Positions 41,890-49,324 of a stretch of 64,000 nt of DNA are shown piece by piece. The stretch comes from Escherichia coli. GTDB taxonomy: Bacteria; Pseudomonadota; Gammaproteobacteria; Enterobacterales; Enterobacteriaceae. The position numbers and the translations under genes were made by a program. Location of the stretch: assembly GCF_003334385.1 (NCBI RefSeq), contig NZ_QOWN01000008.1. One strand, given 5' to 3'. How positions within the stretch are numbered: the stretch's first letter is position 1; each line of letters opens with the position of its first letter. The notes below the pieces were generated by a model, which searched no databases, was not told the DNA's origin, and worked only from the letters and a program-made list of their open reading frames with translations.

Positions 41890-42036
41890 ATCGCAACCCG
41901 CGCTACATATATCCACCCACACAGGCATATTGAGCGATTTTTGATATTTATTCATCTCCTTACGCACTATATTCAGAGCAATAAGTTGCCTCTTTTCATC
42001 TTGATTCAGCACAACCTTTGCAACTAAAAGGAGCCC

Positions 42037-43246
42037 ATGATGGTTACAGTTGTCAGCAATTATTGTCAATTATCTCAAACGCAACTCAGTCAGACATTTG
42101 CAGAAAAATTTACTGTGACCGAGGAATTACTGCAGTCTTTAAAAAAAACAGCGTTATCCGGAGATGAAGAAAGCATTGAGTTACTGCATAATATTGCGTT
42201 AGGTTATGATAAATTTGGGAAAGAAGCTGAAGATATTCTTTACCATATTGTTAGAACCCCAACAAATGAGACCCTATCGATTATCCGACTTATCAAAAAT
42301 GCTTGTTTAAAATTATATAATCTGGCACATATCGCAACCAACTCCCCCCTCAAATCACATGATTCAGATGATCTCCTGTTCAAAAAACTATTCTCCCCTT
42401 CGAAATTAATGACAATTATCGGTGATGAAATTCCTCTTATATCTGAAAAACAGTCGCTTTCAAAGGTGCTTTTAAATGATGAGAATAATGAACTGAGTGA
42501 TGGTACAAACTTCTGGGATAAAAATCGTCAATTAACCACAGATGAAATAGCTTGCTATCTTCAGAAGATCGCCGCTAATGCAAAAAATACTCAAGTCAAT
42601 TATCCTACTGGTCTCTACGTCCCCTACTCCACCAGAACTCACCTGGAAGACGCTCTCAATGAAAATATTAAGAGCGATCCATCATGGCCGAATGAAGTCC
42701 AGTTATTCCCCATAAATACTGGCGGACACTGGATATTAGTTTCGCTACAGAAAATAGTAAATAAAAAAATAATAAACTACAAATAAAATGCGTCATATTC
42801 AACTCATTGCGTGCACTAGGCTATGATAAAGAAAATTCACTTAAGCGTGTCATTAATAGTTTTAATTCTGAACTCATGGGAGAAATGTCGAATAATAATA
42901 TAAAAGTTCATTTAAATGAACCAGAGATAATATTTTTACATGCCGATCTTCAGCAATACTTAAGCCAAAGTTGCGGTGCATTTGTGTGCATGGCAGCCCA
43001 GGAAGTGATTGAACAAAGGGAAAGCAATTCTGACAGCGCCCCCTATACGTTATTAAAAACTATGCTGACAGATTTAAAAAATATTCAGCAGAAGAGCAGT
43101 ACGAAATTGATTTTCAACATCGACTGGCAAACAGAAATTGTTATTTAGATAAATATGGCGATGCAAATATCAATCATTATTATAGAAACTTAGAAATAAA
43201 ACACTCACAACCCAAAAATAGAGCATCCGGCAAAAGAGTGAGTTAA
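42037..43246 (+). pseudogene. elaD: elaD-like CE-clan (Ulp1/SseL-type) deubiquitinase gene, interrupted by two apparent -1 frameshifts in A-homopolymers
   Basis: Three consecutive open segments in frames 1, 0 and 2: 42037..42786 (ORF track, 249 aa), 42807..43148 (ORF track, 113 aa; frame open from 42765), and 43034..43246 (my own translation, ...[54 protein letters not shown]). Frame changes coincide with A7 (42763-42769) and A6 (43076-43081). Adding one A at each restores a single 1212-nt, 403-codon ORF, the length I recall for K-12 ElaD. Confidence 0.7.
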
Positions 43247-43316
43247 CATCATTGTTAATTAATTCGACCAGTCAGCAAATATGCTGACTGGTCGAACATA
43301 GTTTGCTAAACAGTCA

Positions 43317-45044
43317 TCACTGACTGATGTCAGTCACACCATCCGCCAGTTCAATCAGGCGAATAAATTCCGCCCTGTAACCCTGTGGATCTTCCCCTTT
43401 TGCCTGCTGAGCCCACTGTTTGATCTGCTGCCAGGAGGTATTGTTCAGGTATTCAGAACCGCGTAACTTTTGCCCATATGCAGCTACTGCTGCGCGAAAA
43501 CGCATATCTTCAGAGGGCGCGTTTATTGTTGGCCCCAGCGGGAATTCAACTAACTGACTTTCTTTTCCCTGCGGGTATTTCCAGCGAATTTTTAACCAGG
43601 CCAGTTCTTTCGTTTTGTCCGATTTCGCTAATTTGTTATCCGGGGCATAGCGTAACTTATCAATTGATGCTTTTTGCCCGTTCAGCGTTAATTCGAATAA
43701 CAACGTTATATGTTTGCCTGCGCCTATATCCCCTGCATCAACGTTGTCGTTATTAAAATGTTCCACCCGAAGTTGGCGCTTTTCATAACCAATCTGACGG
43801 TATTCCGTTACCCACGCGGGGTTAAACTCAATTTGCGCTTTGACATCTTTTGCTACGGTAATCAACATCTGCCGCATTTCACTATTCAATACTTTCTGCG
43901 CTTCAGAGAGGGTATCAATGTAGCTGTAGTTGCCGTTACCAACATCGGCAATTCGCACCATCATTGCCTCGTTGTAATTGCTATTCCCCACGCCAAACGT
44001 CGACAGAGTAACACCAGACTCCCGCTGTTTTTTGACCATTGATTCAATCGATTTTGGATCGTCAATGCCAACGTTAAAGTCACCGTCAGTGGCTAATAAA
44101 ATGCGATTGATGCCGCCCTTAATAAACCCCTTCGTCGCCTGCTGATAAGCCAGTTCCAGCCCGGCACCGCCATTGGTACTGCCTTCGGCATCCAGCGAAT
44201 CAATTGCGGCATTAATTTCCGCCTTATGACTCCCGGAGATAGAAGGCAATGCAATACGGGAGTCGCCAGCGTAGGTCACGATGGCAATGTTATCCTGCTC
44301 ACGAAGTTCTTTGACCAATAATTTCAACGAAGACTGGATAAGTGGCAAACGTTCATCAGAAATCATTGAACCAGAAGTGTCGATAAGAAAGACCAGATTA
44401 GAAGCTGGTAACTCTTCACTTTTGCGATCTTTCGCCAGGATATCAACTTTCAGCAATGTTCGCTGTTCATTCCATGGTGCAGGTGCCAATTCGTAGCGCA
44501 TAGCGAAAGGTATTGGCTTAGAGGCCGGAATAGATTGTTTGTCTTTGATATCCCAATCAGACGGGAAATAATTGACTATCTCCTCCACCCGCACAGCGTC
44601 TGGCGGAGGTAACAGCCCTTGATTGAGGAAACGCCTTACATTCGCATAACTGCCAGTGTCAACGTCAAGACTAAACGTCGCCAACGGATTTTGCGCTACC
44701 TGCTTAACCGGATTATCATCGAACTGCTGGTAGCGAGCGGTTCCTGGATTTGCGATATGTGTAGCTTTTGCTTTAGCCGCTCTTGCAAATGTTGGCGCTT
44801 CCTGCAATCGCCCCTGTAAAGCCTGTTTGTCTGAATATTGTTGCACTTCTTGCTGGGCCAAGGCTTTCGCGGCGGCGGCGCTTTGCTCAGCCTCTTTTAT
44901 TGCAGCTTGCTGCGCGGCAAGCACTTGCTGCTCTGTGGGAGTACTGGGTTGTTGTTGCTGACTTTCCTTATTCTCAGGTTGCGGCCCACATCCTGACAAA
45001 ATCAAACTACTCATAAGCAACATGATTATATTTTTATTTCGCAT
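43317..45044 (-). CDS. yfbK: Lipoprotein with von Willebrand factor type A (vWA) domain, YfbK (575 aa)
   Basis: ORF 43317..45044; lipobox LILSGC at the N-terminus; Gln/Ala-rich low-complexity linker; vWA MIDAS motif in ...NLVFLIDTSGSM... Confidence 0.9.
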   Translation of the reverse strand: MRNKNIIMLLMSSLILSGCGPQPENKESQQQQPSTPTEQQVLAAQQAAIKEAEQSAAAAKALAQQEVQQYSDKQALQGRLQEAPTFARAAKAKATHIANPGTARYQQFDDNPVKQVAQNPLATFSLDVDTGSYANVRRFLNQGLLPPPDAVRVEEIVNYFPSDWDIKDKQSIPASKPIPFAMRYELAPAPWNEQRTLLKVDILAKDRKSEELPASNLVFLIDTSGSMISDERLPLIQSSLKLLVKELREQDNIAIVTYAGDSRIALPSISGSHKAEINAAIDSLDAEGSTNGGAGLELAYQQATKGFIKGGINRILLATDGDFNVGIDDPKSIESMVKKQRESGVTLSTFGVGNSNYNEAMMVRIADVGNGNYSYIDTLSEAQKVLNSEMRQMLITVAKDVKAQIEFNPAWVTEYRQIGYEKRQLRVEHFNNDNVDAGDIGAGKHITLLFELTLNGQKASIDKLRYAPDNKLAKSDKTKELAWLKIRWKYPQGKESQLVEFPLGPTINAPSEDMRFRAAVAAYGQKLRGSEYLNNTSWQQIKQWAQQAKGEDPQGYRAEFIRLIELADGVTDISQ

Positions 45045-45181
45045 ATAAAATCCTTTTAAATAAACTCAGGCACCAGACATAAAATATACTCTTTGTATAA
45101 TCCTGCTAATCTTAATAAAATACAATATCGAAACCCATAGCAAATAATGATTCAACAACGCAACCCATTAATAATTTGCAT

Positions 45182-46153
45182 ATGAAAAAAATAATCTTTG
45201 CTTTTATTATATTATTTGTGTTTTTACTCCCTATGATTATTTTTTACCAACCCTGGGTCAATGCATTACCGTCAACGCCCCGACACGCAAGTCCTGAGCA
45301 ATTAGAAAAAACAGTTCGTTATCTTACACAAACTGTGCATCCACGTAGTGCCGACAATATTGATAATCTGAATAGGTCCGCAGAATATATAAAAGAGGTC
45401 TTTGTCAGTAGCGGTGCCAGAGTTACCTCGCAGGACGTCCCCATTACGGGTGGCCCCTACAAAAACATTGTTGCTGATTATGGTCCTGCCGATGGACCGC
45501 TGATTATTATTGGTGCGCATTATGACTCTGCCAGCAGTTATGAAAACGATCAATTGACCTATACGCCGGGCGCGGATGATAACGCCAGCGGTGTGGCAGG
45601 ATTACTCGAACTGGCACGTTTGTTACATCAGCAAGTACCGAAAACAGGCGTGCAGCTGGTCGCCTATGCGTCGGAAGAACCGCCCTTCTTTCGTAGCGAT
45701 GAAATGGGGAGCGCGGTGCATGCAGCTTCGCTTGAGCGTCCAGTGAAATTAATGATAGCACTGGAGATGATTGGCTATTACGACTCTGCGCCTGGAAGCC
45801 AGAATTACCCTTACCCGGCAATGTCCTGGCTTTATCCCGATCGGGGAGACTTTATTGCCGTGGTCGGCAGAATACAGGATATCAACGCCGTTCGTCAGGT
45901 AAAAGCGGCATTGTTGTCATCTCAGGATTTATCTGTTTATTCTATGAATACCCCAGGGTTTATTCCCGGTATTGATTTCTCTGACCACCTGAATTATTGG
46001 CAACACGATATTCCCGCCATAATGATTACTGACACCGCTTTTTATCGTAATAAACAATACCACTTGCCCGGTGATACCGCAGACAGATTGAATTATCAGA
46101 AAATGGCTCAGGTAGTGGATGGTGTTATAACTTTGTTATACAACAGTAAATAA
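45182..46153 (+). CDS. yfbL: M28-family (aminopeptidase-like) zinc peptidase YfbL (323 aa from this start)
   Basis: Start ATG at 45182 (MKKIIFAFIILFVFLLPMIIF...); the ORF track uses an ATG two codons upstream at 45176. M28-type motifs GAHYDS and DDNASG. Confidence 0.88.
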   Translation: MKKIIFAFIILFVFLLPMIIFYQPWVNALPSTPRHASPEQLEKTVRYLTQTVHPRSADNIDNLNRSAEYIKEVFVSSGARVTSQDVPITGGPYKNIVADYGPADGPLIIIGAHYDSASSYENDQLTYTPGADDNASGVAGLLELARLLHQQVPKTGVQLVAYASEEPPFFRSDEMGSAVHAASLERPVKLMIALEMIGYYDSAPGSQNYPYPAMSWLYPDRGDFIAVVGRIQDINAVRQVKAALLSSQDLSVYSMNTPGFIPGIDFSDHLNYWQHDIPAIMITDTAFYRNKQYHLPGDTADRLNYQKMAQVVDGVITLLYNSK

Positions 46154-46255
46154 TAAAAATTTCTCGAGGCGGGTCCAGAAAAAGCGACATGCACATTTTA
46201 TTTTCCCTCATCTGTTTTAAGATGCGAAACATGAAATTCAACGGAGGAAAAATAA

Positions 46256-46759
46256 ATGGGAATGATTGGCTATTTTGCAGAAATTGACTCAGAAAAGATT
46301 AACCAACTGCTTGAGTCTACTGAAAAACCTTTGATGGATAATATACATGACACGCTTTCAGGATTACGCCGGCTGGATATTGATAAACGCTGGGATTTTT
46401 TACACTTTGGGCTGACAGGCACCTCTGCTTTTGATCCCGCGAAGAATGATCCGCTGAGTCGTGCCGTGCTTGGTGAACACAGCCTCGAAGATGGCATAGA
46501 TGGCTTCCTTGGATTGACCTGGAATCAGGAGTTATCCGCGACAATCGACCGACTGGAATCACTGGATCGAAATGAACTGCGTAAACAGTTTTCCATTAAG
46601 CGACTCAATGAAATGGAGATTTATCCGGGAGTGACCTTTTCAGAAGAGTTAGAGGGGCAACTCTTTGCCTCGATCATGCTTGATATGGAAAAGCTGATTA
46701 GCGCGTATCGACGTATGCTGCGACAAGGGAATCATGCGCTGACGGTTATTGTTGGGTGA
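46256..46759 (+). CDS. yfbM: Uncharacterised protein YfbM (DUF1877-like, 167 aa)
   Basis: ORF 46256..46759; matches recalled YfbM; no signal peptide evident. Confidence 0.87.
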   Translation: MGMIGYFAEIDSEKINQLLESTEKPLMDNIHDTLSGLRRLDIDKRWDFLHFGLTGTSAFDPAKNDPLSRAVLGEHSLEDGIDGFLGLTWNQELSATIDRLESLDRNELRKQFSIKRLNEMEIYPGVTFSEELEGQLFASIMLDMEKLISAYRRMLRQGNHALTVIVG

Positions 46760-47031
46760 TATAGCTTGATGCCTGGGGGAGAAAGACCCATTAGTTAAGA
46801 TTTACGCCAGGATCATCTTGAAAAAATCTTTAACCATGGTCCGGTTTTTATCCCCTTGTATAAATATTACTAAATGCTTGCTTAGTCGCATTGTTAAATG
46901 CAATACCGTATATTCGGTATGTAACAGCGATATCCTCTGTGCTGGCAACGATCTGTCATGCTTGATGAAAACGGAATTGAACCTGTCATTACCAGGTAGA
47001 TAAAAAGCCTGTTCAATTTTGGGATTATTTT

Positions 47032-47748
47032 TTATAACTCGTGTCTGTTATGGCGACACGGGAAAACATCAATATTGTCCTTCACAAATTGCAGTAATAT
47101 AGAATCAACCTCTCTTGCAAGTTGGTCACAATGTATTATAAGCATTTTGAATATGTCATCCTCTGTAATCTCGTGAAAATTTTCGGCCTTGTCTTTTAGC
47201 TCATCATATCGGATTCTTGCAGTAACCATTTTTTGGGCGAGTTCTAATAACCCCAAAGCTTGCAATTGCTGGTGAGTATGATCACTTTCAAAAAATATCC
47301 CACACTCCATTCCTTCCCAACCAACATATTCATGCCATTCATAAACCAGCATAAATGTTTGTAAAACTGGCGGTAATAATTGGATATCTGCAAAACCAAA
47401 CCAAAACTTACGCTTGAGATCCCACTCATATTCAATCGCCAATGCTATATTGTTTAAGGCATCTCCGGCATCCTTATTTTTACGCAAAATCAATTCCGTC
47501 AGTGTATAGCGTTGTTCATCAATACGCCGAAGAGCTTCTGCAATATCATAGTTTGTAGCCAACAAAACATTCTCTGCTTCCTGATGAGTGACGTCTGCTT
47601 TTGCCGTCAATATATTGATTTGGTCAATATGAAACAACTTGATGGCTTCATCAACATCACCGCCAGTCCTCTCTAACAAACGTCTGGCAACCTGGATACC
47701 GACAGGTACGTTCTTCCGAAGTTTACGAATTTCACTTAACCATTCCAT
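47032..47748 (-). CDS. yfbN: Uncharacterised protein YfbN (238 aa) with two N-terminal UBA/TS-N-like helical motifs
   Basis: ORF 47032..47748; N-terminus VGIQVARRLLERTGGDVDEAIKLF resembles the EF-Ts N-terminal UBA-like (TS-N) motif; a second UBA-like stretch is THQEAENVLLATNYDIAEALRRI. Judged by eye. Confidence 0.85.
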   Translation of the reverse strand: MEWLSEIRKLRKNVPVGIQVARRLLERTGGDVDEAIKLFHIDQINILTAKADVTHQEAENVLLATNYDIAEALRRIDEQRYTLTELILRKNKDAGDALNNIALAIEYEWDLKRKFWFGFADIQLLPPVLQTFMLVYEWHEYVGWEGMECGIFFESDHTHQQLQALGLLELAQKMVTARIRYDELKDKAENFHEITEDDIFKMLIIHCDQLAREVDSILLQFVKDNIDVFPCRHNRHEL

Positions 47749-47902
47749 GTCAAACCCCTTTAAATATTTATGATATTAAATATAACAACGTCTGGATAAC
47801 GACCCGGCCTGACTGAATATCTCACGTTTTCCTGCTTAACATTCATGTTATGATGCTCTTGAAACTAATAATACGTATGGAATTGTCACTATTTATCTGC
47901 TA

Positions 47903-48379
47903 ATGAATTCAAACAATGTCATTCGTTTGATGAATATATTATTTCAGGGAATAATTATGACACCTTTAGAACGCATTACCCAACTTGTTAATATCAATGG
48001 TGATGTTAATAATCCTGATACTCCTCGTCCATTGTTATCTCTTGAGGATTTTTTTATTGACAATAATATCCATGGTTCAATATGTTGCAATGTGATTCCA
48101 GAACAATCTCCGCAAGCTATCTATCACCATTTTCTGAAAATACGTGAGCGTAACAATGTTAGTGATGTTTTGGTAGAAATTACGATGTTCGATGACCCAG
48201 ACTGGCCCTTTAGTGAAAGTATTTTAGTTATCACCACTGCTTCACCAGAAGAAGTTCAGAGCTGGTTTGTAGAAGAAATTGCCCCTGATGAGTGCTGGGA
48301 AGGATGGTCAGAAGATACGGAGCATGGATGGGTTGAAGTCCCTGTGGGTATGCATCCGGTTACTTGTTGGTGGGATTAA
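47903..48379 (+). CDS. yfbO: Uncharacterised protein YfbO (158 aa from 47903; 140 aa if started at the in-frame ATG at 47957)
   Basis: ORF 47903..48379; acidic, Trp-rich C-terminus (...ECWEGWSEDTEHGWVEVPVGMHPVTCWWD); start codon uncertain. Confidence 0.78.
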   Translation: MNSNNVIRLMNILFQGIIMTPLERITQLVNINGDVNNPDTPRPLLSLEDFFIDNNIHGSICCNVIPEQSPQAIYHHFLKIRERNNVSDVLVEITMFDDPDWPFSESILVITTASPEEVQSWFVEEIAPDECWEGWSEDTEHGWVEVPVGMHPVTCWWD

Positions 48380-48434
48380 AACATTTATATAAACAGATAA
48401 GCGGATGTTTACATAAATTTTTATGTGAAGGAAC

Positions 48435-49286
48435 ATGATGAAACTTATTCCTCGCAGTAGTGATATTTCACCTGGCATTGATGGAATTTGCCCGGGGCCT
48501 TTTCCTCCGAACGGATTTACCGTACTTACAGATGCAGCATATGGTAACGGAGACTGTTTCGGTTTGTACTGGCCTATTGGTCAGGAGCATAAACTACCTA
48601 TAGTGTGCGAAACGTACCATGACGAATGGCGAATCGTACCTGCCTTTTCCAGCATTAAGAAGTTCGAAGAATGGCTGGAAGTGAATGATGATGCTCCCCA
48701 TGAAAATGGCATCAGCATCGAAGATCAAGACTTTGCAGCAAATCTCTTCCGTGTTGCTCGGAAATGTCTTTCAACGGGAAGGCTTGATGACGCACTGCCA
48801 CTGTTACAGCGAGCAACAGAACAATTGCCTGAAGTCAGCGAATATTGGTTAGCACTGGCAATCCAGTATCGCCGATGTAAAAAAACAGAAGCTGCAGCAC
48901 AGGCTGCGCTTAATGCTTATCTTGGCAATTGGGCATTTGGTGTTCCTGACAATAAAGTCATTCATTTGCTGTCACAGGCCGCAGATGTCCCGAATTTCCA
49001 GGATGATCCTGTGATTCAGTGCATTAAAGAACAAGGATTAGATCTTAGCTTTGGAGGAACAAAGGAAAATAATAATTACCCCTTGATGCAGATGTGTGTT
49101 GATACTTATTTTGCGCAGAGAAAACCGCTTCAGGCATTAACCCTGTTACATAATTATGCCTGGATAATGTCCAGTGAAACGACTGCATTTCAGGAACGCT
49201 ATGATTTTAATATCGATGAATGGCGGGCAAAATTCAGGCAGTTATGTTTAGAGTATTTTGGCGATAGTCGTACACAGTTCACTTAA
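48435..49286 (+). CDS. yfbP: Uncharacterised protein YfbP (283 aa), possibly TPR-like helical
   Basis: ORF 48435..49286; a second in-frame ATG at 48438 is possible. Confidence 0.85.
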   Translation: MMKLIPRSSDISPGIDGICPGPFPPNGFTVLTDAAYGNGDCFGLYWPIGQEHKLPIVCETYHDEWRIVPAFSSIKKFEEWLEVNDDAPHENGISIEDQDFAANLFRVARKCLSTGRLDDALPLLQRATEQLPEVSEYWLALAIQYRRCKKTEAAAQAALNAYLGNWAFGVPDNKVIHLLSQAADVPNFQDDPVIQCIKEQGLDLSFGGTKENNNYPLMQMCVDTYFAQRKPLQALTLLHNYAWIMSSETTAFQERYDFNIDEWRAKFRQLCLEYFGDSRTQFT

Positions 49287-49324
49287 CGCTCTGCGTCTAT
49301 CTACTATCCCTTCTTTTTCAGAAA

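What the first reader, a model, noticed from the sequence alone, without database searches (positions are those of the whole stretch)
43317..46153. Divergent pair: vWA-domain lipoprotein YfbK and M28 peptidase YfbL
yfbK encodes a lipoprotein (lipobox LSGC) with a long Gln/Ala-rich linker and a vWA domain with an intact MIDAS motif (DTSGS). It is divergently transcribed from yfbL, which encodes a secreted or membrane-anchored M28 zinc peptidase. Such pairs often act on envelope or extracellular protein substrates. Neither gene has a well-established function that I can recall.
Basis: partly seen in the sequence, partly recalled or inferred. Interest (0 to 1): 0.3.

Follow-up and report, generated by a model that had tools for sequence, protein, structure and literature searches.

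The report
Known neighbours yfbK and yfbL
These are two already-annotated E. coli envelope genes, a metal-binding adhesion-type lipoprotein and a zinc aminopeptidase, that sit back to back by shared ancestry; the evidence argues against an obligate working pair, so the finding is ordinary.

Summary
The window is E. coli chromosome. yfbK (43317-45044, minus strand) encodes a 575-aa lipoprotein with an Ala/Gln-rich tether and a vWA module with a complete metal-binding site. yfbL (ATG 45182-46153, plus strand) encodes a 323-aa M28 peptidase with all catalytic residues.

The "functional pair" interpretation is not supported. The back-to-back arrangement exists only in an Escherichia-Salmonella clade. 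None of 77 non-enterobacterial YfbK-family loci has an M28 gene within 7 kb; 49 of all 80 loci have an ECF sigma-factor gene directly adjacent, a link already published for ECF289 anti-sigma factors. The window contains no sigma gene, so E. coli YfbK is an orphan of that family.

Each gene has been lost without the other. S. enterica, E. whittamii and most sampled E. albertii keep yfbK but have lost or broken yfbL. About 780 E. coli genomes keep full-length yfbL after a 1.56-kb yfbK deletion, and about 2,060 more also carry a truncated yfbL. Both genes are under purifying selection where intact (dN/dS 0.09-0.20).

A 2025 preprint links yfbL, but not yfbK, to phage N4 infection. Interest is low and the genes are already known.

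The parts
43317..45044 (-). yfbK coding sequence (575 aa plus stop): a vWA-domain lipoprotein
   Evidence: ORF; RefSeq annotation; Pfam domains
44988..45044 (-). YfbK signal peptide with lipobox LSGC (Cys19). The +2 residue is Gly, so sorting to the outer membrane is expected.
   Evidence: Sequence. Listed as a predicted lipoprotein in CoBaltDB (PMC2850352). The sorting prediction is an inference from the +2 rule.
44745..44987 (-). YfbK Ala/Gln-rich tether (residues 20-100), with a predicted long single helix at residues 38-80
   Evidence: Composition; AlphaFold2 secondary structure. Allele lengths range from 575 to 615 aa; where the indels fall was not mapped.
44448..44741 (-). YfbK N-terminal vWF_A (PF12450) domain, residues 102-199
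   Evidence: E 2e-32
43896..44399 (-). YfbK VWA domain, residues 216-383. MIDAS DTSGS lies at 44367-44381, with T290 and D320 completing the site.
   Evidence: invariant residues
43341..43868 (-). YfbK_C (formerly DUF3520), residues 393-568: a beta-sandwich followed by a helical bundle
   Evidence: E 6e-66. Model. ArnB/Sec23-like fold matches.
45045..45181 (.). 137-bp AT-rich divergent intergenic region
   Evidence: One sigma-70-like site for yfbL at 45074-45101. Poorly conserved across genera apart from the yfbK ribosome-binding site and a -10-like element. No Rfam match.
45182..46153 (+). yfbL coding sequence (323 aa plus stop): an M28 zinc peptidase
   Evidence: The start codon is supported by the annotation and the orthologue alignment.
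45182..45244 (+). YfbL N-terminal hydrophobic segment (MKK plus about 18 hydrophobic residues), probably an uncleaved signal anchor
   Evidence: Sequence. The candidate cleavage site VNA|LP is not conserved in orthologues, which have VAP, VTP or VMP. This is an inference.
45464..46132 (+). YfbL M28 catalytic domain. Residues and their window coordinates: H113 (45518-45520), D133 (45578-45580), E165-E166 (45674-45679), E195 (45764-45766), H294 (46061-46063).
   Evidence: Pfam. Alignment to Aeromonas/Vibrio leucyl aminopeptidase positions H97, D117, E151, E152, D179 and H256. All six positions are invariant in 5 orthologues.
43357..44912 (.). Segment deleted in the yfbK-minus E. coli haplotypes, with the same boundaries in three unrelated strains
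   Evidence: genome counts
45444..45768 (.). Segment of yfbL additionally deleted in O157:H7, BL21 and B1-type strains. It removes H113 through E195.
   Evidence: annotated as frameshifted pseudogenes; counts

Best explanation
yfbK and yfbL are two separately functioning, dispensable envelope genes. They are neighbours by common descent in the Escherichia-Salmonella branch of the Enterobacteriaceae. They are not an obligate two-component system.

YfbK is a lipoprotein exported to the periplasmic side. Gly at the +2 position makes outer-membrane anchoring the expected outcome. An Ala/Gln-rich helical tether of about 60 residues holds a three-domain ArnB/Sec23-like vWA module with a complete MIDAS site. 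This is a metal-dependent ligand- or protein-binding scaffold, not an enzyme. Elsewhere in bacteria this module is the extracytoplasmic sensor part of ECF sigma-factor signalling. It is either fused to a transmembrane anti-sigma N-terminus (the ECF289 type) or made as a lipoprotein encoded immediately upstream of the sigma gene. The enterobacterial copy has no sigma partner nearby and is an orphan with an unknown target.

YfbL is a membrane-anchored or secreted periplasmic di-zinc M28 aminopeptidase with an intact active site. It most likely trims N-terminal residues of envelope or periplasmic proteins, as its E. coli relative Iap does. It has recently been reported to be needed for phage N4 infection.

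Shown here: the gene and domain identities, residue conservation, purifying selection, distribution and neighbourhoods. Inferred: localisation, biochemical activity and functional independence.
For: - Identities and domains.
- MIDAS residues invariant.
- M28 ligands aligned to solved aminopeptidases and invariant in orthologues.
- YfbK model with pLDDT 83.8; best fold matches are ArnB, 4fx5 and ITIH1. The same resemblance is published (PMC12852372).
- The YfbK core has 7,150 50%-identity clusters at E<=1e-30.
- Of 80 species-representative loci, only 3, all Enterobacteriaceae, have a YfbL-like ORF.
- 49 of 80 loci have an ECF sigma gene within 300 bp. 23 of 42 lipoprotein-type loci have the sigma directly downstream on the same strand. 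One worked example is Shewanella.
- ECF289 anti-sigma factors are described as DUF3520 plus vWA: PMC7826278.
- No sigma gene in the 64-kb window.
- Independent losses: S. enterica, E. whittamii and E. albertii, E. coli haplotypes.
- dN/dS is 0.09-0.20 for both genes, including yfbK in yfbL-less S. enterica.
- Deleting yfbL or yfbO gives complementable N4 resistance, and yfbK is not among the hits: preprint 10.1101/2025.09.29.679331.
Against: - The divergent adjacency is retained in at least four genera: Escherichia, Salmonella subsp. salamae, Superficieibacter and Pseudocitrobacter.
- In E. coli, yfbK is almost never found without a full-length yfbL (2,512 of 2,514 genomes).
- yfbL has decayed in most E. 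coli lineages that lost yfbK. That would also fit a loose functional link. However, these patterns rest on about two inherited deletion events.
- No expression, localisation or biochemical data were available.
- The reciprocal survey of YfbL-subfamily neighbourhoods outside the enterics rests on only three contigs.
Confidence: 0.65

Rival explanations
1. YfbK and YfbL form a co-regulated envelope module: the vWA lipoprotein captures or presents a protein substrate and the M28 peptidase trims it, or YfbL processes YfbK itself. Both would be driven from a bidirectional promoter.
For: - Divergent adjacency conserved across Escherichia, S. enterica subsp. salamae, Superficieibacter and Pseudocitrobacter.
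- Both products face the periplasm.
- In E. coli, 2,512 of 2,514 yfbK-positive genomes also have a full-length yfbL. After the yfbK deletion, yfbL was truncated in about 2,060 genomes.
Against: - No M28 gene next to 77 of 77 non-enterobacterial YfbK homologues.
- No vWA gene next to the distant YfbL relatives found.
- yfbK is kept intact and under purifying selection where yfbL is absent or broken, in S. enterica, E. whittamii and most sampled E. albertii.
- About 780 E. coli genomes keep full-length yfbL without yfbK.
- The spacer is poorly conserved.
- The N4 screen recovered yfbL but not yfbK.
- The E. coli association reduces to about two inherited deletions.
Confidence: 0.15
2. Both genes are functionless relics of a low-GC accessory island between rbn and nuoN, decaying slowly in the enterics. 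Their adjacency and intactness in K-12 are historical accidents.
For: - The elaD-yfbP block has 36-46% GC against 52-58% in the flanks.
- yfbK is deleted in 54% of complete E. coli genomes and yfbL is truncated in about 38%.
- yfbNOP are absent from the same haplotypes.
- IS insertions occur in or between the two genes.
- Sporadic yfbK pseudogenes are reported in Salmonella serovars.
Against: - Where intact, both genes show dN/dS of 0.09-0.20 over divergences up to saturation of synonymous sites.
- All MIDAS and M28 catalytic residues are invariant.
- Deleting yfbL has a complementable phenotype.
Confidence: 0.12
3. E. coli YfbK still works in sigma-factor signalling, but with an unlinked partner such as RseA/RpoE or FecR/FecI. 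YfbL would act as a site-specific protease in that cascade.
For: The family-wide association of the YfbK module with ECF sigma and anti-sigma genes. One distant YfbL-like gene lies downstream of an ECF sigma gene.
Against: - No sigma gene in the 64-kb window.
- The linkage elsewhere is strictly local, within 300 bp.
- M28 enzymes are exopeptidases, not the site-1 or site-2 type proteases of known ECF cascades.
- The L117 case is a single observation.
Confidence: 0.04

Closest known systems
ECF289-type anti-sigma factors (vWA plus DUF3520/YfbK_C extracytoplasmic domain; Casas-Pastor et al. 2021, PMC7826278)
   Same: The same three-domain core, vWF_A(PF12450)-VWA-YfbK_C, at 40-50% identity over residues ~100-570.
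   Different: E. coli YfbK has a lipoprotein signal peptide and a tether in place of a cytoplasmic anti-sigma segment and a transmembrane helix. There is no ECF sigma gene beside it or anywhere in the window.
Lipoprotein-type YfbK homologues of Shewanella, Colwellia, Pseudomonas and other gamma- and betaproteobacteria, encoded upstream of an ECF sigma gene
   Same: Full-length collinearity including the lipobox and an Ala/Gln-rich tether, at 40-52% identity.
   Different: Those genes are followed within 300 bp by an ECF sigma gene. In Shewanella a single-TM protein comes next. The enterobacterial genes are followed by elaD, by a CheW/response-regulator gene, or directly by rbn, on the opposite strand.
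ArnB (Sulfolobus), vWA protein 4fx5 (Catenulispora), inter-alpha-inhibitor heavy chain, Sec23/24 core
   Same: The vWA, beta-sandwich and helical-domain architecture (Foldseek E 2e-18 to 2e-14). The resemblance is published.
   Different: Sequence identity is only 12-16% and TM-scores are 0.33-0.48. The cellular compartments and partners differ. There is no FHA/ZnF partner such as ArnA.
BatA/BatB aerotolerance vWA proteins of Bacteroides (3ibs, 4jdu)
   Same: The closest solved vWA domains by sequence (E 1e-7 to 2e-6).
   Different: Only the vWA domain matches. Bat proteins are membrane proteins in a MoxR-containing operon, and there is no such operon here.
Aeromonas/Vibrio leucyl aminopeptidase (1amp, 1rtq) and E. 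coli Iap, both family M28
   Same: YfbL shares the M28 fold and all metal-ligand and general-base positions.
   Different: The match is distant (E 1e-9 to 1e-11). The fourth ligand is Glu195 rather than Asp. YfbL has a probable uncleaved N-terminal anchor. It scores far below every NCBIfam equivalog cutoff, so it is a separate subfamily with unknown specificity.

Membership tests
vWA domain with functional MIDAS | DxSxS motif plus a downstream Thr and Asp that coordinate the metal ion | tested here: met
   D222, S224, S226, T290 and D320 are present and invariant in 27 homologues. VWA Pfam E 4e-22.
YfbK family (PF12450 + PF00092 + PF12034 architecture) | All three domains present in order | tested here: met
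   E. coli YfbK is the protein the family is named after.
Bacterial lipoprotein | Type II signal peptide: basic n-region, hydrophobic h-region, and a lipobox [LVI][ASTVI][GAS]C | tested here: met
   MRNKNIIMLLMSSLILSGC. The lipobox is conserved in orthologues.
Bacterial lipoprotein | Actual lipidation, and the membrane to which the protein is sorted | not testable with these tools
   Only the +2 rule (Gly20, not Asp) can be applied, and it predicts the outer membrane.
ECF289-type anti-sigma factor | An N-terminal cytoplasmic segment and a transmembrane helix preceding the vWA module | tested here: not met
   E. coli YfbK has a lipoprotein signal peptide. The N-cytoplasmic-plus-TM class is found in alphaproteobacteria, Verrucomicrobia and Planctomycetes.
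ECF289-type anti-sigma factor | A cognate ECF sigma gene directly adjacent | tested here: not met
   No hit to the sigma HMM anywhere in the 64-kb window or in the enterobacterial loci L005-L007.
Peptidase family M28 (clan MH) | M28 fold | tested here: met
   PF04389 E 6e-25. PDB M28 aminopeptidases at E down to 5e-11.
Peptidase family M28 (clan MH) | Co-catalytic zinc ligands His, Asp, Glu, Asp/Glu and His, plus the general-base Glu | tested here: met
   H113, D133, E166, E195, H294 and E165 align to AAP H97, D117, E152, D179, H256 and E151. They are invariant in 5 orthologues. The fourth ligand is Glu instead of Asp.
Peptidase family M28 (clan MH) | Measured aminopeptidase activity and specificity | not testable with these tools
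   No biochemical data were found.
Recurrent vWA-lipoprotein / M28-peptidase gene pair | Co-occurrence and adjacency across unrelated lineages | tested here: not met
   0 of 77 non-enterobacterial YfbK loci have an M28-like ORF. Three distant YfbL relatives have no vWA neighbour.
Recurrent vWA-lipoprotein / M28-peptidase gene pair | Joint retention or loss within the clade that has the pair | tested here: not met
   Each gene is retained without the other in several lineages.
Bat/MoxR-type vWA operon | A neighbouring MoxR AAA+ ATPase and further Bat genes | tested here: not met
   The neighbours are elaD, yfbL, yfbM-P and rbn.
Known anti-phage defence systems (PADLOC) | A match to a defence-system protein model | tested here: not met
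   No PADLOC hit for YfbK, YfbL or YfbM-P.

The most novel reading that the evidence does not exclude
Lipoprotein-type YfbK proteins may be a separate, third component of an uncharacterised envelope signalling module. In 23 of 42 lipoprotein-type loci the gene order is vWA lipoprotein, then ECF sigma on the same strand; in the one example examined (Shewanella) a single-pass membrane protein follows. The enterobacterial YfbK would be an orphan of that module that survived loss of its sigma factor and acquired a new role, possibly together with the adjacent peptidase YfbL in shaping the envelope feature that phage N4 needs.
Probability: 0.1. Interest if true: 0.45.

Novelty: already known. Interest (0 to 1): 0.15.

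Why it matters
It matters little for discovery. Both genes are annotated, their domain content is in the public databases, the ArnB-like architecture of YfbK is published, and so is the link between the vWA/DUF3520 module and ECF sigma factors.

This analysis has three practical uses:
- It warns against reading the divergent arrangement as a functional unit.
- It places E. coli YfbK as an orphan of an ECF-associated sensor family. That suggests studying the family in organisms that still have the sigma partner.
- It shows that the locus is polymorphic in E. coli. K-12 has both genes, while BL21, O157 and B1 strains have neither intact. This is relevant to anyone following up the reported yfbL/yfbO dependence of phage N4.

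Tried and rejected
- The word-index homology search with E. coli YfbK returned only E. coli alleles. I replaced it with the 50%-representative search and a search seeded from Superficieibacter.
- Context look-ups for the two closest non-Escherichia representatives gave 2-kb contigs that were too short to use.
- NCBIfam gave only sub-threshold hits for both proteins and nothing for YfbM-P. PADLOC gave nothing.
- Pfam found no anti-sigma domain in the N-terminus of the Mesorhizobium homologue. NCBIfam found nothing for the Shewanella post-sigma protein. Their anti-sigma roles therefore rest on topology, position and the published ECF289 description.
- The promoter and terminator scan gave consensus-level matches only. 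Aligning the spacer between genera showed no conserved operator.
- Rfam found nothing real and there are no tandem repeats in the tether DNA.
- The LldR gSELEX peak lies inside yfbK, and the authors do not treat it as a target.
- The reports on rifampicin-induced persisters and on low conjugation efficiency for yfbK mutants are single-line screen hits.
- The supplements of the ECF classification paper were not available.
- I considered folding a YfbK-YfbL fusion to look for an interface. I rejected it because only about 5 paired orthologues exist and a negative result would say nothing.
Full report
**Observation**

The window is E. coli chromosome in the men-elaBA-rbn-elaD-yfbK-yfbL-yfbMNOP-nuo region. 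It is 99.95% identical over 12 kb to strain M217, and the two genes are 100% identical to K-12-type strains. An ORF of 575 codons lies at 43317-45044 on the minus strand. An ORF reaching 46153 lies on the plus strand.

RefSeq starts yfbL at ATG 45182 rather than the upstream TTG 45176, and the orthologue alignment agrees. The spacer is therefore 137 bp, not 131 bp.

YfbK begins MRNKNIIMLLMSSLILSGC, a standard lipoprotein signal with Cys19. Next come 81 residues of which 19 are Ala and 17 are Gln. Then come three Pfam domains: vWF_A PF12450, VWA and YfbK_C. The MIDAS residues D222, S224, S226, T290 and D320 are invariant in 27 homologues of 40-53% identity.

YfbL has an MKK-plus-hydrophobic N-terminus and a Peptidase_M28 domain. 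Aligned to solved Aeromonas/Vibrio leucyl aminopeptidase, H113, D133, E165, E166, E195 and H294 fall on H97, D117, E151, E152, D179 and H256. All six are invariant in five orthologues of 62-93% identity. Every descriptive element of the finding is confirmed.

**What YfbK is**

The AlphaFold2 model has mean pLDDT 83.8. It shows a long helix at residues 38-80 followed by a compact core from about residue 100 to 570: an N-terminal domain, a vWA domain, a beta-sandwich and a helical bundle.

The best solved-structure matches are archaeal ArnB, the Catenulispora vWA protein 4fx5 and inter-alpha-inhibitor heavy chain 1. Pilus-tip adhesins and Sec24 follow. These are binding scaffolds, not enzymes. 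The ArnB paper already names E. coli YfbK as a structural orthologue (PMC12852372).

The core is extremely widespread, with 7,150 50%-identity clusters at E<=1e-30. The N-terminal regions vary greatly, and total lengths run from about 540 to 1,570 residues.

**Is there a vWA/M28 pair in general?**

I scanned one genome per species with an alignment of the family and obtained 80 loci from many phyla, with up to 7 kb on each side. Searching every ORF in them with YfbL found a relative only in E. albertii, Superficieibacter electus and a Pseudocitrobacter MAG, and in none of the other 77.

The commonest neighbour is instead an ECF sigma factor (TIGR02937, 105.6 bits against a cutoff of 42.9). It lies within 300 bp in 49 of 80 loci. 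Two main arrangements appear:
- Lipoprotein-type homologues in gamma- and betaproteobacteria are followed by the sigma gene on the same strand, in 23 of 42 such loci. In Shewanella xiamenensis the order is vWA lipoprotein, sigma, then a single-pass membrane protein.
- In alphaproteobacteria, Verrucomicrobia and Planctomycetes, the vWA protein has a cytoplasmic segment of about 70 residues and a transmembrane helix, and it follows the sigma gene. [quoted passage not shown]

The 64-kb window has no sigma-factor ORF. E. coli YfbK is therefore an orphan of an ECF-associated sensor family.

**The pair inside the Enterobacteriaceae**

The divergent arrangement is real and old. It is present in E. 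coli, E. marmotae, some E. albertii, S. enterica subsp. salamae, Superficieibacter and Pseudocitrobacter, always between rbn and nuoN. But each gene is lost without the other:
- The large S. enterica YfbK cluster (2,821 member sequences) has nuoN, an 889-bp gap, then yfbK, with no detectable yfbL remnant.
- E. whittamii retains only the two ends of yfbL beside an intact yfbK.
- The dominant E. albertii configuration and the type strain have yfbL broken at codon 212 beside an intact yfbK.
- In the other direction, among 5,426 complete E. coli genomes, yfbK is present at >=80% length in 2,514, yfbL in 3,293, and both in 2,512.

The yfbK-minus genomes share one deletion, window 43357-44912, with identical boundaries in three unrelated strains. 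A nested 326-bp deletion, about 45444-45768, removes the yfbL catalytic core in O157:H7 and a human gut isolate; BL21 and other strains show the same ~65% coverage of yfbL.

The striking raw association in E. coli therefore rests on about two inherited events and has no statistical weight.

Where intact, both genes show dN/dS of 0.09-0.20. For yfbK the value is 0.18 between salamae, which has yfbL, and enterica, which lacks it. Each gene is therefore maintained by selection on its own.

The spacer aligns poorly between genera. Only the yfbK ribosome-binding site and a -10-like element line up. The spacer has no Rfam match.

**Reciprocal view**

I scanned metagenome contigs for the YfbL-specific motif EEPPFFRSDEMG and found 42 loci. 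Thirty-nine are enterobacterial-like, at 74-100% identity. Three are distant relatives at 36-53% identity, and none of these has a YfbK-like ORF on its contig. This sample is small.

**Literature**

No paper in the searchable library assigns a function to either gene.
- A 2025 preprint reports that Keio deletions of yfbL and of yfbO make K-12 resistant to phage N4 specifically, and that plasmid complementation restores sensitivity. yfbK is not mentioned.
- yfbK appears only as a single hit in a persister screen and in a conjugation-efficiency side observation, and as a sporadic pseudogene in Salmonella lineages.
- An LldR gSELEX peak lies inside yfbK and is not treated as a target.

**Mechanism committed to**

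YfbK is a periplasm-facing lipoprotein. Because residue +2 is Gly, the +2 sorting rule predicts outer-membrane anchoring; this is an inference. It holds a MIDAS-dependent binding module on a helical tether. Its ancestral role was sensing in ECF signalling, and its present ligand in E. coli is unknown.

YfbL is a periplasmic di-zinc aminopeptidase. It is probably held on the inner membrane by an uncleaved signal anchor, because the candidate cleavage site is not conserved; this too is an inference. It would trim the N-termini of envelope proteins, which may include something phage N4 needs.

I put 0.65 on the two acting independently, 0.15 on a genuine functional pair, about 0.12 on both being relics, and a few per cent on cryptic sigma signalling.

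**Verdict**

They are already annotated and their family context is published. Interest is low.

Noticed in passing
window 42037-43248 (elaD), near 42762 and 43054: elaD carries two single-A deletions in homopolymer runs (A7 and A5) relative to the intact 403-aa gene of strain M217. They split it into ORFs 42037-42786 and 42807-43148. This is either a real pseudogene or homopolymer sequencing errors.
   Followed up: partly
window ~42000-49300: The whole elaD-yfbK-yfbL-yfbMNOP block is a low-GC island (36-46%) between rbn and nuoN, whose flanks are 52-58% GC. yfbN-yfbO-yfbP (46761-49321) are absent from all three yfbK-deleted E. coli strains examined. One of them has an IS200/IS605 transposase there instead.
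   Followed up: partly
window 44915-45443: The spacer and the first ~260 bp of yfbL are only about 80% identical between this haplotype and the O157/B1-type haplotype, while the flanking DNA is 94-97% identical. This is an unusually diverged segment within one species.
   Followed up: no
L117 2325-5665 (environmental metagenome contig Ga0182024_10012695): A distant YfbL-like M28 gene (36% identity) lies on the same strand downstream of an ECF sigma-factor gene and two small ORFs. This echoes the ECF association of the YfbK family, but it is a single case and could be coincidence.
   Followed up: partly
L063 6980-10243 (Shewanella xiamenensis): In the vWA-lipoprotein / ECF sigma / single-TM-protein operon, the lipoprotein tether and the periplasmic part of the third protein are both Ala/Gln/Glu-rich helical-looking sequences, like the E. 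coli YfbK tether. They may be interacting coiled segments.
   Followed up: no
E. coli records NZ_LR890606.1, NZ_CP126343.1, NZ_CP182159.1 (hits H1, H11, H41): Independent IS insertions (ISVsa5, IS903B, IS1B) lie within the yfbK-yfbL match (H1, H11) or inside yfbK (IS1B, H41) in otherwise K-12-like haplotypes.
   Followed up: no
L087/L088 8832-9872; L006 8812-9813: In Salmonella, a 333-aa CheW/response-regulator hybrid gene occupies the position that the deubiquitinase gene elaD holds in E. coli, downstream of yfbK. Superficieibacter has an unannotated 333-aa ORF at the same position. E. albertii, E. marmotae and E. whittamii have neither gene there.
   Followed up: no
window 47957-48379 (yfbO) and 45182-46153 (yfbL): A 2025 preprint reports that deleting either yfbL or yfbO gives complementable, N4-specific phage resistance. 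Both genes lie in the same variable island, and yfbO has no detectable family in NCBIfam or PADLOC.
   Followed up: partly
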